From: Escherichia phage HK3 | Sequence record: PP526765 | Length of the DNA: 64,000 bases | Reading direction: 5' to 3' (one strand) | Part shown: positions 31,411 through 35,748 of the stretch, one piece after another | Layout of the letters: every line of letters begins with the position of its first letter | Position numbering within the stretch: position 1 is the first letter of the stretch | The notes under the pieces: generated by a model | What the model was told of the DNA's origin: nothing | The model's database searches: none | Seen by the model: the letters and a program-made list of their open reading frames with translations, nothing else | Position numbers and translations under genes: made by a program

Positions 31411-31481
31411 ATTTAGGAGAGAAGCGATTGCTCACCGATTTGTAAGGTGCAAGTCCTTAGCCTGAATAGAATAATAAAATG

Positions 31482-31569
31482 TGTCGTTATCCCGTAGATG
31501 GTAGCGGTGGGGACTGTAAATCCCTTGTCATTGAGACTCGGTAGGTTCGACTCCTACACGGCACACCAA
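31482..31569 (+). tRNA. tRNA-Tyr (anticodon GUA), long variable arm
   Basis: acceptor GTGTCGT/ACGGCAC, anticodon stem GGGGA/TCCCT, loop CTGTAAA, 88 nt, T-loop TTCGACT, CCA. Confidence 0.6.
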
Positions 31570-31630
31570 TTTTGAGAGGGCTATTTAGCCCCTCCCTTAA
31601 AGAGTTCTTACGAGTACCCTTTAAAGGAGC

Positions 31631-32158: not shown

Positions 32159-32234
32159 CTGTGAAAGCACATATGGATGTGCATTCGGCTGATAACCGAA
32201 AGGAAGAAGGTTCGAATCCTTCTCACAGTACCAA
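32159..32234 (+). tRNA. tRNA-Ile (anticodon GAU)
   Basis: D-stem GCAC/GTGC, anticodon stem TTCGG/CCGAA, loop CTGATAA, T-arm GAAGG-TTCGAAT-CCTTC, CCA. Confidence 0.65.
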
Positions 32235-32249
32235 TTTCAATAAAGTTGT

Positions 32250-32278
32250 TGACATTGAGATGTGACCACTTTATAGTA
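32250..32278 (+). promoter_or_regulatory. internal promoter TTGACA-N17-TATAGT inside the tRNA cluster
   Basis: read directly. Confidence 0.55.
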
Positions 32279-32481
32279 ACCTTAGTTTTCGTTGCGTAGC
32301 GTCTATTTTGCAAATTTAAAATAAATGCAAACGACAATGTTTTTCTGGCAGTAGCTTGATAGGCTAAACACCAGTGAGGTCTTCCAATCCCTCATCAAAG
32401 AATTTGGCGTACTAGCCCACGGTATGATTAATAAGGTGGGCATCTTTAAGGGTTTTTTAAGAGAGTCTTTAAAGATTAATG

Positions 32482-32558
32482 CACCCTTAGTTCAACTGGA
32501 CAGAACAAATGACTTCTAATCATTAGGTTACAGGTTCGAATCCTGTAGGGTGTGCCAA
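32482..32558 (+). tRNA. tRNA-Arg (anticodon UCU)
   Basis: D-stem GTTC/GAAC, anticodon stem AATGA/TCATT, loop CTTCTAA, T-arm ACAGG-TTCGAAT-CCTGT, CCA. Confidence 0.65.
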
Positions 32559-32700
32559 ATAGTTAGCAGATTGCTTAGACGACCTTATCGGGTCTCCGTG
32601 TAGGGAGGTGGTCTGTATCTCATGTTTTCCAGAACATGTAAATAATCTGAGAAGGGGCTTTACAGTGTTGAGATAATACGGTAAGCTTCGAATTATAGTA

Positions 32701-32783
32701 TGGGACGATGTTAAGACTCTAAGGCATGAGCAACGGCTTCCAACACCGTTTCAAAGGGATTCAACTCCTCCGTCCCATGCCAA
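32701..32783 (+). tRNA. atypical tRNA-like gene (possible anticodon CCA, Trp); irregular D and T arms
   Basis: perfect 7-bp acceptor ATGGGAC/GTCCCAT plus G-CCA, but T-stem has only 3 clean pairs and the D-region is 26 nt. Confidence 0.35.
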
Positions 32784-32796
32784 AGTCTTATTAGGG

Positions 32797-32886
32797 GTAG
32801 GTAGCGGCTAATGGTAGCCAAACTGTCTTGAAAACAGTTGCCACTGTAGAGATACGGTGAGGGTTCGACTCCTTTACTTACCGCCT
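32797..32886 (+). tRNA. tRNA-Ser (anticodon UGA), long variable arm
   Basis: anticodon stem ACTGT/ACAGT, loop CTTGAAA, 20-nt variable arm, T-loop TTCGACT; CCA not fully encoded. Confidence 0.55.
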
Positions 32887-34004: not shown

Positions 34005-34562
34005 ATGAGATATTTGAAGTATGCTTCATGGATTTTCCTAGCTTTGTTAGACCCATTGGCAGCAACCTTAGCAGTTATCTTAGCACCTTTTGTAGTTCCA
34101 TTCTACAGTGAGAAGAAAGGGCACTTACCTTTCGGCTTCAGATGGATGGAGACATATGACAACCCAATTGATGGTGATAAAGGTCATGTTGAACGATGGG
34201 CTAAGATTAGAAAGATTGGTAAGCTTGGTGTCTATATGCAGAGAGTCGGTTGGCTCTGGAGAAACAAAGCTTATAACTTCTCTTACCATGTGTTAGGAAG
34301 AGATGTAAAAGATGTTACTAAGTGGAAAGGTAATATCAACGTAAGCTCTGACCCTGAAGATAATCAGACAGGTTATCTCCTAATGTGGAACAGTAATGCT
34401 TGGGGATTATTCGCTTTTATCCCATCAATTAAAGTCTTTGGTAAACAATTCTACTGGAGAATTTATATTGGGTGGAAACTAAAAAGTGTTGTCCCAGAAG
34501 AAAGAGCATTCTCAAGGGAAAGAGTTATGTTGGCATTCTTTATTCATCCACTGAGAAAGTAA
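34005..34562 (+). CDS. hydrophobic protein encoded inside the tRNA cluster (185 aa)
   Basis: ORF track; AAGAGG Shine-Dalgarno 9 nt upstream; hydrophobic N-terminal helix. Confidence 0.55.
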   Translation: MRYLKYASWIFLALLDPLAATLAVILAPFVVPFYSEKKGHLPFGFRWMETYDNPIDGDKGHVERWAKIRKIGKLGVYMQRVGWLWRNKAYNFSYHVLGRDVKDVTKWKGNINVSSDPEDNQTGYLLMWNSNAWGLFAFIPSIKVFGKQFYWRIYIGWKLKSVVPEERAFSRERVMLAFFIHPLRK

Positions 34563-34920: not shown

Positions 34921-34997
34921 TAGTCCAAGTAGCTTATATGGTTAAAGCGCGTGTCTGAAAAACATGAGAAGAGGGTTCAAATCCCACTGGATTACCA
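34921..34997 (+). tRNA. tRNA-Phe (anticodon GAA)
   Basis: anticodon stem CGTGT/ACATG, loop CTGAAAA, T-loop TTCAAAT; acceptor register uncertain by 1 nt. Confidence 0.5.
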
Positions 34998-35013
34998 ATT
35001 TCAAAGGTGCTTA

Positions 35014-35748
35014 ATGAAAGAGATGACAGAACAAGGTAAGGAGATTTTTAATCTCTTAAAAACTGGTAAAGGGTTTTCTAACCCCCTTATTACTGGTGCA
35101 GCAGTTCTCGGTGGAACCGTAGCTGCCTCTACATCACTTGTAAGCTCTATTAGCTCTGTAACAGACCCTACAATAAAGGATAAACTTATTGCTGCTGGAC
35201 TTACAACAGTTCTGCTTAACAGCTTTACAACGAGTCTGACAAGCACTACAGCAACTACTAAGACCCTAACAGACTATGGTCAAAAATCTATTGATGAGTT
35301 TTCATCACGTATGCAGGTAGCAAAGGGATACTCCAATGTTATGGGTGCAGTAGGAGAACAAGTTGGTTGTACACCATTTAGTGGTATTATGGGTGTTGCT
35401 ACAGAGTATGGTCAAAAAGCTATGGATACAATTAACAGCACACTAGATGGCGTTAATGATGTATTAAGCGACTTACAGGATGCTATTGATAAAGGTCTTA
35501 ATACTATTTCTGATTTAGCTAACCAAGCTGTTAGTAAGATTAATGAAGGTATCTCAAAGATTACAGCTTATGCAGATGAAGTTGTGCAGATGATTGAAGA
35601 AGAAGCTGCCCTTATTGCAGAGTACCTTAAAACGAATATCAATGGGTTCTTAGCAGGTATCTTACCAGACTGGTTTGATGATGCTTGTAAAACTGGTGTG
35701 ATTGACACTATTGCAACACCAGAAATGAAGAACGCATTACAGAAATAA
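35014..35748 (+). CDS. Ser/Thr-rich hypothetical protein (about 244 aa)
   Basis: ATG at 35014 after AAAGGTG; track ORF 34951..35748 would overlap the tRNA-Phe gene. Confidence 0.5.
   Translation: MKEMTEQGKEIFNLLKTGKGFSNPLITGAAVLGGTVAASTSLVSSISSVTDPTIKDKLIAAGLTTVLLNSFTTSLTSTTATTKTLTDYGQKSIDEFSSRMQVAKGYSNVMGAVGEQVGCTPFSGIMGVATEYGQKAMDTINSTLDGVNDVLSDLQDAIDKGLNTISDLANQAVSKINEGISKITAYADEVVQMIEEEAALIAEYLKTNINGFLAGILPDWFDDACKTGVIDTIATPEMKNALQK

What the first reader, a model, noticed from the sequence alone, without database searches (positions are those of the whole stretch)
32701..32783. Atypical tRNA-like gene with perfect acceptor stem but irregular D and T arms
A perfect 7-bp acceptor helix (ATGGGAC/GTCCCAT) with discriminator and CCA frames an 83-nt molecule. 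Its T-stem has only three clean pairs and the D-region is 26 nt. The best anticodon reading is CCA (Trp) with a C:A mismatch in the stem. It may be a divergent functional tRNA, a pseudogene or a tRNA-like RNA with another role.
Basis: seen in the sequence. Interest (0 to 1): 0.45.

Follow-up and report, generated by a model that had tools for sequence, protein, structure and literature searches.

The report
Hidden non-canonical tryptophan tRNA in Felix O1 phages
An 83-base gene in the tRNA cluster of this Felix O1-type phage is a conserved, oddly shaped tRNA with a tryptophan anticodon that standard tRNA finders miss, and it probably supplies the tryptophan tRNA these phages were thought to lack.

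Summary
The window is a Felixounavirus tRNA cluster with 25 ARAGORN tRNAs and none for Trp or Asp. ARAGORN, published tRNAscan-SE runs and the Rfam tRNA model (no hit at E<=10) all miss the element. It is nevertheless present in 235 phage records across Ounavirinae. Thirteen distinct variants form one cloverleaf: 99.2% of cells pair, and 8 of 19 pairs show compensatory double changes against 0 in slid controls. U33-CCA-A37, G73 and the encoded CCA end never vary. Departures from a normal tRNA are an invariant 10-nt acceptor-to-D connector (GAUGUUAAGA) instead of 2 nt, a 3-bp D helix, a 4-bp T stem and a conserved C.A or C.C at 31.39. Carriers lack any other Trp tRNA; Yersinia phage P778 has tRNAs for the other 19 amino acids in its cluster region. 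A minority of relatives carry a 71-nt detectable tRNA-Trp plus an HNH-like ORF in exactly this slot. Best reading: a functional, structurally non-canonical tRNA-Trp. It is not a pseudogene, although the window's copy has a private G-to-A at 32759 that breaks G53-C61. Expression and charging are untested.

The parts
32700..32782 (+). Whole 83-nt non-canonical tRNA-Trp-like gene, including the encoded 3' CCA
   Evidence: Sequence. Family covariance model R1 scores it 106.2 bits. Conserved in 235 phage records. It is exactly the segment exchanged for the alternative allele in wV8-type phages: window 32700-32783 against L002 2141-2637.
32700..32706 (+). Acceptor stem 5' strand ATGGGAC, pairing with 32772-32778
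   Evidence: 7 of 7 pairs, 100% paired in 13 variants. Pairs 1-72 (AU/GU/GC) and 2-71 (UA/CG) change on both sides.
32707..32716 (+). Invariant 10-nt connector GATGTTAAGA between acceptor and D helix (a normal tRNA has 2 nt). G32707 may pair with C32771, giving an 8-bp acceptor.
   Evidence: Invariant in all 13 variants down to about 75% overall identity. RNAalifold adds the G8-C pair. It aligns with positions 8-17 of the canonical phiEa21-4 tRNA-Trp.
32717..32730 (+). D-like arm: 3-bp helix CTC/GAG (32717-19 with 32728-30) and 8-nt loop TAAGGCAT holding the conserved GG (32723-24)
   Evidence: The middle pair is U-A in 8 variants and A-U in 5, and one pair changes C-G to U-G. 100% paired. GG is invariant.
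32732..32750 (+). Anticodon arm: stem AACGG/CCGTT (32732-36 with 32746-50), C.A at 32737/32745, 7-nt loop TTCCAAC (32738-44), anticodon CCA at 32740-32742
   Evidence: 4 of 5 stem pairs show compensatory double changes. TCCAA is invariant. The core CGGCCTCCAAAACCG, as carried by other family members (the window copy has CGGCTTCCAACACCG), is identical to the canonical tRNA-Trp of phiEa21-4, including the C31.A39 mismatch.
32751..32755 (+). Variable region TCAAA (5 nt)
   Evidence: Invariant in 13 variants.
32756..32770 (+). T arm: 4-bp stem GGGA/CCTC (32756-59 with 32767-70) and 7-nt loop TTCAACT. A32759 is a private G-to-A that breaks the G53-C61 equivalent.
   Evidence: Pair 50-64 is G-C in 11 variants and U-A in 2. 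The loop is TTCGAAT in most genera. Every other record, including the 99.4%-identical BPSELC-1, has G at 32759.
32772..32782 (+). Acceptor 3' strand GTCCCAT, discriminator G (32779) and encoded CCA (32780-82)
   Evidence: G and CCA are invariant in 13 variants. 24 of 25 ARAGORN tRNA calls in the cluster also end in an encoded CCA.
32558..32699 (+). Conserved upstream spacer shared by carriers of both alleles. It ends in AGT, so U is at -1 directly before the mature 5' end.
   Evidence: wV8-type relatives match only up to 32699. AGT is invariant in 8 sequences across genera. The weak promoter-like site at 32668-32696 (9 of 12 matches) is not above shuffle expectation.
32481..32557 (+). Upstream neighbour tRNA-Arg(TCT)
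   Evidence: ARAGORN and Rfam, 69.7 bits. The same neighbour is present in Moogle, Sf14, Sf17, EcSzw-2, P778 and Arno18.
32796..32885 (+). Downstream neighbour tRNA-Ser(TGA)
   Evidence: ARAGORN and Rfam, 33.2 bits. The same neighbour is found in relatives carrying either allele, except Arno18, where ARAGORN calls no tRNA-Ser in the fetched region.
32249..32277 (+). Best sigma-70-like site upstream (TTGACA-17-TATAGT, 11 of 12 matches). It is a candidate promoter for an Arg / Trp-like / Ser transcript.
   Evidence: Consensus scan only. No terminator-like site is predicted on the + strand between it and 32782. The link to the element is an inference.

Best explanation
The element is the resident tryptophan tRNA gene of Felix O1-like phages (Ounavirinae), in a non-canonical shape. 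It is probably transcribed with its neighbours tRNA-Arg(TCT) and tRNA-Ser(TGA). It would then be cut at its 5' end by RNase P (conserved U at -1), carries its own encoded CCA end, is charged by the host TrpRS through anticodon CCA, discriminator G73 and the A1-U72 pair, and reads UGG codons. Its body keeps a 12-bp acceptor/T stack (7+4 with an A.C, or 8+4 if G8 pairs with C65), a T loop of the TTCRAHT type, GG in the D loop and a 7-nt anticodon loop with U33 and A37. It differs from a normal tRNA in four ways: an invariant 10-nt connector where normal tRNAs have two nucleotides, a D helix of only 3 bp, a 4-bp T stem, and a conserved C.A or C.C at 31.39. Shown here: conservation, covariation, invariant identity positions, the missing-isotype pattern and the allele replacement. 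Inferred, not shown: transcription, processing, aminoacylation and ribosomal use. The window's own copy has one private substitution (G-to-A at 32759) that removes the G53-C61 equivalent, so it may work less well than the family norm.
For: (1) Structure under selection. In 13 distinct variants from Felixounavirus, Mooglevirus, Suspvirus and Yersinia/Pectobacterium phages, 99.2% of cells pair (shuffles 88.1 +/- 1.4, 0 of 500 reach it). 8 of 19 pairs have changes on both sides (25 cells), against 0 in all six slid controls, and the covariation score is 0.358 against at most 0.061. RNAalifold independently returns the same four helices. (2) Decoding and identity positions never vary: TCCAA in the loop, G73 and CCA. 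The 32/38 positions vary as they do in real tRNAs. (3) The 15-nt anticodon-arm core carried by most family members is identical to that of the canonical 76-nt tRNA-Trp of Erwinia phage phiEa21-4, including C31.A39. A model built only from this family matches about 40 genuine tRNAs end to end, and that tRNA-Trp scores 34.9 bits. (4) Missing-isotype logic. The window has 25 tRNAs but no Trp. Yersinia phage P778 has tRNAs for 19 amino acids in the 6-kb cluster region scanned, with only Trp missing, and Arno18 also has no Trp there. Published whole-genome tRNAscan-SE runs give Sf14 26 tRNAs for 19 amino acids with no Trp row (PMC12482277). Felix O1's table of 22 tRNAs shows no Trp in the 18 rows I could read, and that paper did not turn up in my three-term search that included 'Trp' (PMC3185647). 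(5) Same slot, same anticodon. In wV8-type phages exactly this segment is replaced by a 71-nt tRNA-Trp(CCA) that ARAGORN calls and Rfam scores at 33.2 bits. The record counts fit mutual exclusivity: 272 = 235 + 23 + 14 Erwinia. (6) ARAGORN's permissive mitochondrial mode calls Trp(cca) in 4 of 4 members. (7) A contrasting tRNA-like remnant in Kolesnikvirus accumulates uncompensated acceptor changes, which shows what decay looks like in this phage group.
Against: No detector built for bacterial tRNAs accepts it. ARAGORN at default settings finds nothing and the Rfam tRNA model gives no hit at E<=10. I know of no characterised elongator tRNA with a 9-10-nt acceptor-to-D connector, so fit to EF-Tu and the ribosome is not assured. 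U8 is replaced by G. The anticodon arm could equally be a 5-bp stem with a 9-nt loop. The T stem has only 4 pairs, one of them G.U, and it tolerates breaks in two lineages (the window's G53A and the G.U-to-U.U change in SP116). There is no transcript or charging evidence. The covariation rests on only 13 distinct sequences in about 4 haplotype groups, so the independent events are few (about 8). The Felix O1 'no Trp' statement rests on 18 of 22 table rows plus an indirect search inference. The TrpRS identity rules are from my own knowledge of E. coli, not tested here.
Confidence: 0.68

Rival explanations
1. It is a tRNA-like RNA that is made and folded but is not used for decoding. Examples are a decoy or sponge for a host tRNA-targeting defence nuclease or a tRNA-binding enzyme, or a regulator that mimics tRNA-Trp. 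The invariant 10-nt connector would then be the site bound by the partner.
For: The most conserved stretch is the non-tRNA part, GGGACGATGTTAAGA, invariant across all genera, which suggests a constraint beyond ordinary tRNA function. Standard tRNA models reject the molecule. Host defences that cut tRNAs, including tRNA-Trp, are documented, for example retron Eco2 (PMC12916289). A second tRNA-like element without an anticodon loop sits in the same slot in Kolesnikvirus phages.
Against: A decoy would not need U33-CCA-A37, G73 and the CCA end all to be invariant while the stems drift by compensation. It also does not explain why carriers lack exactly Trp, or why the replacing allele is a detectable tRNA-Trp. 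No partner protein is evident next to the gene.
Confidence: 0.15
2. It is a decaying tRNA-Trp pseudogene that persists only because it sits inside a conserved tRNA cluster.
For: No tRNA finder calls it. The window copy has a private G53A equivalent that breaks the most conserved T-stem pair, and the SP116 lineage has U.U in the T stem. The single-sequence folding energy is not unusual.
Against: Only 2 of 247 stem cells in the family are unpaired. Eight pairs carry compensatory double changes, and the flanks diverge much faster than the element between genera: about 83-85% identity for the element against about 66-71% upstream. A true decaying relative in Kolesnikvirus looks different, with uncompensated acceptor changes and no anticodon loop.
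Confidence: 0.07
3. It is a charged tRNA-Trp whose altered D region or enlarged anticodon loop changes decoding. The model is the Hirsh D-arm suppressor of E. coli tRNA-Trp, which reads UGA. A 9-nt loop might instead allow +1 frameshifting.
For: Both Ounavirinae Trp alleles have abnormal D arms: the 83-nt form and the 71-nt form, whose D region aligns poorly to the Rfam model. The anticodon arm can be drawn with a 9-nt loop. That D-arm changes in tRNA-Trp alter decoding is established knowledge recalled by me, not tested here.
Against: TGA terminates 14 of 56 long ORFs in the window, so efficient UGA suppression would be costly. The C.A at 31.39 is shared with a canonical-shaped tRNA-Trp, which favours a 7-nt loop. 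No programmed read-through or frameshift site was sought or found.
Confidence: 0.07

Closest known systems
Canonical phage-encoded tRNA-Trp (for example Erwinia phage phiEa21-4, 24578-24653)
   Same: Anticodon CCA, loop CUCCAAA, the 15-nt anticodon-arm core carried by most family members including C31.A39, G73, A1-U72, a TTCGAAT T loop, GG in the D loop, and location in the Ounavirinae tRNA cluster.
   Different: The window element has a 10-nt connector where the canonical tRNA has 2 nt, a new 3-bp D helix made from inserted bases, a 4-bp T stem instead of 5 bp, and an encoded CCA. It fails the Rfam and ARAGORN models, which the canonical gene passes.
The 71-nt tRNA-Trp plus HNH-like endonuclease cassette of wV8, SUSP1 and Sf19
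   Same: Same genomic slot between tRNA-Arg(TCT) and tRNA-Ser(TGA), same anticodon, G73 and encoded CCA. It is also structurally reduced in the D arm and is often left unannotated or labelled 'tRNA-OTHER'.
   Different: There is no recognisable sequence similarity outside the anticodon loop. It is 12 nt shorter and passes the Rfam threshold (33.2 bits). It is linked to a 134-aa ORF with weak, below-cut-off HNH matches that some records annotate as HNH endonuclease. It is nearly invariant (98.6-100%) across three genera, and the Sf19-SUSP1 cassette is 99.8% identical while the flanks are 80-84%. This fits a mobile replacement allele.
Structurally aberrant tRNAs (metazoan mitochondrial tRNAs; tRNA-Sec and tRNA-Pyl)
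   Same: They are functional tRNAs that depart from the 7/5 cloverleaf and are missed by standard models. ARAGORN's mitochondrial mode calls the element Trp. A possible 8-bp acceptor recalls bacterial tRNA-Sec.
   Different: Those classes shrink or lose arms (mitochondrial), or have long variable arms and a UCA or CUA anticodon (Sec, Pyl). Here the change is an expansion between the acceptor and the D helix, with a normal short variable region and a sense anticodon. The Rfam tRNA-Sec model gave no hit.
Homing-endonuclease-driven exchange in phage tRNA regions (T4 SegB; recalled from my own knowledge)
   Same: An endonuclease-like ORF embedded in a phage tRNA cluster, with sharp-edged replacement of the neighbouring tRNA gene between related phages.
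   Different: No cleavage site or homing has been shown here. The ORF's HNH match is below Pfam's cut-off.

Membership tests
Canonical bacterial-type tRNA (Rfam RF00005) | Covariance-model score at or above the gathering threshold of 29 bits | tested here: not met
   No match even at E<=10, either in 5.5 kb or in 103 nt. The neighbouring tRNAs score 33-70 bits.
Canonical bacterial-type tRNA (Rfam RF00005) | 7-bp acceptor stem, discriminator base and a 3' CCA | tested here: met
   7 of 7 pairs, 100% paired in 13 variants, with two pairs covarying. G73 and CCA are invariant.
Canonical bacterial-type tRNA (Rfam RF00005) | Two-nucleotide connector (U8, N9) between the acceptor and D stems | tested here: not met
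   The connector is 10 nt, GAUGUUAAGA (9 nt if G8 pairs), and invariant. The first base is G, not U.
Canonical bacterial-type tRNA (Rfam RF00005) | D arm with a 3-4-bp stem and a loop containing G18 G19 | tested here: met
   3-bp helix CWC/GWG with one compensatory pair. The 8-10-nt loop has an invariant GG. The contact between GG and the T loop is not testable here.
Canonical bacterial-type tRNA (Rfam RF00005) | 5-bp anticodon stem and a 7-nt loop with U33 and a purine at 37 | tested here: inconclusive
   Five covarying Watson-Crick pairs are followed by a conserved C.A or C.C. This is either a 6-layer stem with a 7-nt loop (U33, A37 present) or a 5-bp stem with a 9-nt loop. The same C.A occurs in a canonical-shaped tRNA-Trp, which favours the 7-nt reading.
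Canonical bacterial-type tRNA (Rfam RF00005) | 5-bp T stem with G53-C61 and a T-Psi-C-R-A loop | tested here: not met
   The family has 4 pairs plus an A.C (or G8-C65). The loop TTCGAAT or TTCAACT fits. The window copy has A53.C61.
tRNA-Trp isoacceptor (E. coli TrpRS identity set, recalled: C34 C35 A36, G73, A1-U72) | Anticodon CCA, discriminator G73 and an A1-U72 pair | tested here: met
   CCA and G73 are invariant. Pair 1-72 is A-U in 8 variants, G.U in 3 and G-C in 2.
tRNA-Trp isoacceptor | Aminoacylation with tryptophan and decoding of UGG | not testable with these tools
   Needs tRNA-seq, acid gels or in vitro charging.
tRNA pseudogene | Uncompensated substitutions in stems and loss of invariant positions across relatives | tested here: not met
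   2 of 247 stem cells are unpaired and 8 pairs are compensatory. The Kolesnikvirus remnant shows the opposite pattern.
tRNA-Sec, tmRNA, YrlA and other Rfam tRNA-like families | A match to the family covariance model | tested here: not met
   No Rfam family of any kind matches 32690-32792 at E<=10.

The most novel reading that the evidence does not exclude
The expanded, invariant acceptor-to-D connector is an adaptive feature and not a tolerated scar. It would give a charged tRNA-Trp a new property. That property could be altered decoding (low-level UGA read-through in the manner of the Hirsh D-arm suppressor, or frameshifting through a 9-nt loop). It could instead be resistance to, or titration of, a host tRNA-targeting defence nuclease, so the phage keeps translating when host tRNA-Trp is attacked.
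Probability: 0.12. Interest if true: 0.8.

Novelty: new variant of a known kind. Interest (0 to 1): 0.55.

Why it matters
Felix O1 is a classical reference phage, and its relatives are widely used for typing, biocontrol and defence-system screens. Their published tRNA inventories (Felix O1: 22 tRNAs; Sf14: 26 tRNAs for 19 amino acids) appear to omit a gene that is present in more than 230 sequenced genomes. If the element is a working tRNA-Trp, several of these phages encode tRNAs for all 20 amino acids or nearly so. That affects codon-adaptation analyses and arguments that phage tRNAs replace host tRNAs destroyed during infection. It would also be a natural elongator tRNA that tolerates an 8-nt expansion at the 8/9 junction, a part of the tRNA core normally regarded as fixed. 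This gives a test case for RNase P, TrpRS, EF-Tu and ribosome tolerance, and possibly a scaffold for tRNA engineering. It also shows that standard detectors have a blind spot that comparative covariation analysis can fill.

Tried and rejected
(1) An alternative D stem using the ancestral 5' strand (GUU pairing with GAGC, as in E. coli-like tRNA-Trp) is rejected. Column 32 switches between A and U while its proposed partner is invariant, whereas CWC/GWG covaries in 13 of 13 variants.

(2) A connector/D-loop pseudoknot (AUG with CAU) is 100% pairable, but only through one-sided wobble changes. I keep it as a tentative tertiary contact only.

(3) Complementarity between the D region (TAAGACT) and the 3' trailer (AGTCTTA) is absent in SUSP2, P778 and Arno18, so I treat it as coincidental or lineage-specific.

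(4) An own promoter: the TTGAGA-17-AATTAT site at 32668-32696 matches only 9 of 12 positions, and promoter-like sites in the region are not above shuffle expectation (16 against 12.9 +/- 3.7).

(5) Wider homolog searches. The invariant 15-mer found 85 loci in IMG/VR, of which about 30 are true copies, all close Ounavirinae, and the rest are chance hits inside coding DNA. A T-arm 20-mer found only family members plus an unrelated class II tRNA, L095. Gapped patterns returned 20 loci from JGI metagenomes and 112 from IMG/VR, and the family model accepted none of them.

(6) Protein-coding reading: only a 36-aa TTG ORF on the minus strand overlaps the element. The 'hypothetical protein' calls in some records are not supported by the substitution pattern.

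(7) The Kolesnikvirus element at the same slot (L096 23959-24044) is not a member of this family. It has no anticodon loop and its changes are uncompensated.

(8) Relaxed ARAGORN in bacterial mode gives inconsistent, misregistered calls.

Full report
CONTEXT. The window is a Felix O1-like myovirus (Felixounavirus, Ounavirinae). The 801 bases around the finding are 99.4% identical to Salmonella phage BPSELC-1 and match 272 phage records. ARAGORN finds 25 tRNA genes on the + strand between 30920 and 35922, and Rfam confirms 23 of them at gathering score. No Trp or Asp tRNA is called. The finding lies between tRNA-Arg(TCT) at 32481-32557 and tRNA-Ser(TGA) at 32796-32885.

CHECKING THE OBSERVATION. 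The features are real but shifted by one base. ATGGGAC is at 32700-32706, GTCCCAT at 32772-32778, the discriminator G at 32779 and CCA at 32780-32782, giving 83 nt. Taken alone this is weak evidence. A perfect 7-bp helix followed by NCCA at tRNA-like spacing occurs 10 times in the window, against about 3.25 in Markov-1 random sequences. The minimum-energy fold is a four-way junction, but its energy is ordinary (z = -1.09). ARAGORN does not call the element, and the Rfam tRNA model gives no match at E<=10, either within 5.5 kb or when only 103 nt are supplied.

COMPARATIVE EVIDENCE. The 83-mer is found in 235 phage records: 193 at 95-99% identity, 37 at 80-95% and 5 at 60-80%. I fetched copies from Felix O1, Moogle, Sf14, Sf17, EcSzw-2, Yersinia phage P778 and Pectobacterium phage Arno18, and took further variants from IMG/VR. 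None is annotated as a tRNA, and ARAGORN calls none of them.

Thirteen distinct sequences align with only two small indels. On the cloverleaf read from that alignment, 99.2% of 247 stem cells form standard pairs (shuffles 88.1 +/- 1.4; 0 of 500 reach the observed value). Eight of 19 pairs have changes on both sides (25 cells), while all six slid controls have none. The covariation score is 0.358 against at most 0.061. By helix:
- Anticodon stem: compensatory changes in 4 of 5 pairs (AACGG/CCGTT, GTAAG/CTTAC, GTAGG/CCTAC).
- Acceptor top: A-U and U-A switch to G-C and C-G.
- D-like helix: U-A switches to A-U.
- T-stem pair 50-64: G-C switches to U-A.

RNAalifold, given no structure, returns the same four helices plus an invariant G8-C65 pair. 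The flanks diverge faster than the element between genera, about 66-71% identity upstream against 83-85% for the element. A model built only from this family finds the window copy at 106 bits. It also matches about 40 genuine tRNAs end to end in the window and in relatives, so the fold is tRNA-like in the reciprocal direction as well.

ANATOMY.
- Conserved, tRNA-like features: a 7-bp acceptor; GG in the D loop; a loop reading Y-U-C-C-A-A-M with invariant U33, CCA and A37; a 5-nt variable region; a T loop that is TTCGAAT in most genera and TTCAACT in the Felix group; G73; and an encoded CCA. The three bases before the 5' end (AGT, so U at -1) are invariant across genera.
- Non-canonical features: an invariant 10-nt connector GAUGUUAAGA in place of U8-N9; a D helix of only 3 bp; a T stem of 4 pairs with A49.C65, or an 8+4 stack if G8 pairs with C65; and a conserved C.A (C.C in P778 and Arno18) below five Watson-Crick anticodon-stem pairs.

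The C.A is not peculiar to this family. The canonical 76-nt tRNA-Trp of Erwinia phage phiEa21-4 has the identical 15-nt core CGGCCTCCAAAACCG, which is the form carried by most family members; the window copy differs at two loop positions. This ties the family to an Ounavirinae tRNA-Trp lineage and favours a 7-nt loop. In the model-to-tRNA alignment the invariant connector lines up with positions 8-17 of that tRNA (UAGUUUAACU), and the family has about six extra bases just before the D-loop GG. My inference is that an insertion, possibly a small duplication in the D arm, created a new 5' D-stem strand and left the old one as a conserved single-stranded connector. A 3-bp pairing between the connector (AUG) and the D loop (CAU) is always possible but is supported only by wobble-preserving changes.

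WHY TRP.
- Carriers of the element have no other Trp tRNA. This holds for the window and for the 6-kb cluster regions scanned in P778, whose called tRNAs cover the other 19 amino acids, and in Arno18.
- Published whole-genome tRNAscan-SE runs agree. Sf14 has 26 tRNAs for 19 amino acids with Arg-TCT followed directly by Ser-TGA (PMC12482277). Felix O1's table of 22 tRNAs shows no Trp in the 18 rows I could read, and that paper did not come up in my three-term search that included 'Trp' (PMC3185647).
- In a minority of relatives (wV8, O157 typing phages, VpaE1_ev78, SUSP1, Sf19 and others; 23 Ounavirinae records) similarity to the window stops exactly at 32699 and resumes at 32784. The intervening segment is a 71-nt tRNA-Trp(CCA) that ARAGORN calls and Rfam scores at 33.2 bits, followed by a 134-aa ORF.
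- That ORF has only sub-threshold Pfam HNH matches but is annotated as an HNH or predicted endonuclease in SUSP1 and Sf19.
- The record counts fit mutual exclusivity (272 = 235 + 23 + 14 Erwinia).
- The two alleles alternate even within one species: Sf17 carries the 83-nt element and Sf19 carries the cassette.
- The Sf19 and SUSP1 cassettes are 99.8% identical although their flanks are 80-84% identical, which fits a mobile cassette replacing the resident gene.
- Two unrelated sequences with the same anticodon, discriminator and CCA end, swapping at one slot, is what functional equivalence predicts.
- ARAGORN's permissive mitochondrial mode calls Trp(cca) in all four members tested.

MECHANISM AND RIVALS. 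The best-supported reading (confidence about 0.68) is a functional but structurally non-canonical tRNA-Trp. It would be co-transcribed with its neighbours; the best promoter-like site is at 32249-32277, with no + strand terminator predicted before 32782. It would then be processed by RNase P, charged by host TrpRS through CCA, G73 and A1-U72 (an identity rule recalled from E. coli work, not tested here), and used at UGG. UGG makes up about 10 per 1000 codons in the window's long ORFs.

The rivals are as follows.
- A tRNA-like decoy or regulator (about 0.15). The extreme conservation of the non-tRNA connector favours it. It does not explain the invariant decoding and identity positions or the missing-isotype pattern.
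- A pseudogene (about 0.07). Covariation contradicts it for the family. By contrast, the tRNA-like remnant in the same slot of Kolesnikvirus phages shows uncompensated acceptor changes and has no anticodon loop.
- A decoding-altered tRNA-Trp (about 0.07). It is attractive because D-arm changes in tRNA-Trp are known to alter decoding, but TGA ends 14 of 56 long ORFs.

The window's own copy differs from every other record, including BPSELC-1, by a G-to-A at 32759. This breaks the G53-C61 equivalent. It may be a slightly impaired allele or a sequencing error.

NOVELTY. I found no description of this element in the searchable literature, in GenBank annotations of the fetched records, or in Rfam. 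It is a new structural variant of a known kind of gene, a phage-encoded tRNA. It is not a new class of system. Transcription, processing and aminoacylation remain to be shown.

Noticed in passing
window 31566-31570, against L002 924-1001: The window lacks the tRNA-Asp(GTC) gene that follows tRNA-Tyr in wV8-type phages and Felix O1. The absence is a clean 78-nt gap with full homology on both sides. The window also has about 61 extra bases between tRNA-Asn and tRNA-Tyr (31416-31476). So this genome has no called Asp tRNA.
   Followed up: partly
L096 (Erwinia phage phiEa21-4) 23959-24044: There is an unannotated tRNA-like element directly after tRNA-Arg(TCT). It has a 7-bp closing helix, a GGTTCGAATCC T loop and a CCA end, but no anticodon-type loop. 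It is conserved in 36 Kolesnikvirus-type records, yet its acceptor changes are uncompensated. It looks like a decaying tRNA relic or a different small RNA.
   Followed up: partly
L002 2147-2217 (wV8-type), L234 and L235 701-771: The alternative 71-nt tRNA-Trp also has a reduced D arm. It is labelled 'tRNA-OTHER' in wV8 and is unannotated in Sf19 and SUSP1. It shows 80% identity over 60 nt to a region of Vibrio phages D484, K566 and K567, and 93% identity over its 3' 29 nt to the tRNA-Trp of large Vibrio phages. This hints at acquisition from outside Ounavirinae.
   Followed up: partly
window 32558-32699: The 142-nt spacer upstream of the element is 93-98% conserved in Felixounavirus carriers of both alleles. 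It contains strong hairpins (GACCTTATCGGGTC and CATGTTTTCCAGAACATG). Its function is unknown and no Rfam family matches it.
   Followed up: no
window 32455-32480; L096 24265-24289: A shared leader motif, GAGAGTCTTTNAGATTRAAT, directly precedes tRNA-Arg(TCT) in the window and tRNA-Leu in phiEa21-4. It may be a conserved processing or promoter signal at the start of tRNA sub-clusters.
   Followed up: no
window 34005-34562 and 34951-35748: Two protein ORFs sit inside the tRNA cluster and match families of unknown function: DUF7338 (E = 3e-62) and DUF7217 (E = 1e-88). The second ORF's listed GTG start overlaps tRNA-Phe, so its true start is probably further downstream.
   Followed up: partly
Phage database records GU169904.1 (Staphylococcus phage SA1) and MG065664.1 (Campylobacter phage A132): These records, named for unrelated hosts, contain the Felix O1-type element. 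This suggests chimeric or mislabelled records.
   Followed up: no
L001 (Felix O1) 1111-1503 and 138-623; window 32233-32481: HNH endonuclease ORFs occupy different inter-tRNA gaps in different Felixounavirus genomes. Felix O1 has one where the window has tRNA-Arg(TCT). The tRNA cluster therefore appears to be a hotspot of endonuclease-linked gene gain and loss.
   Followed up: no
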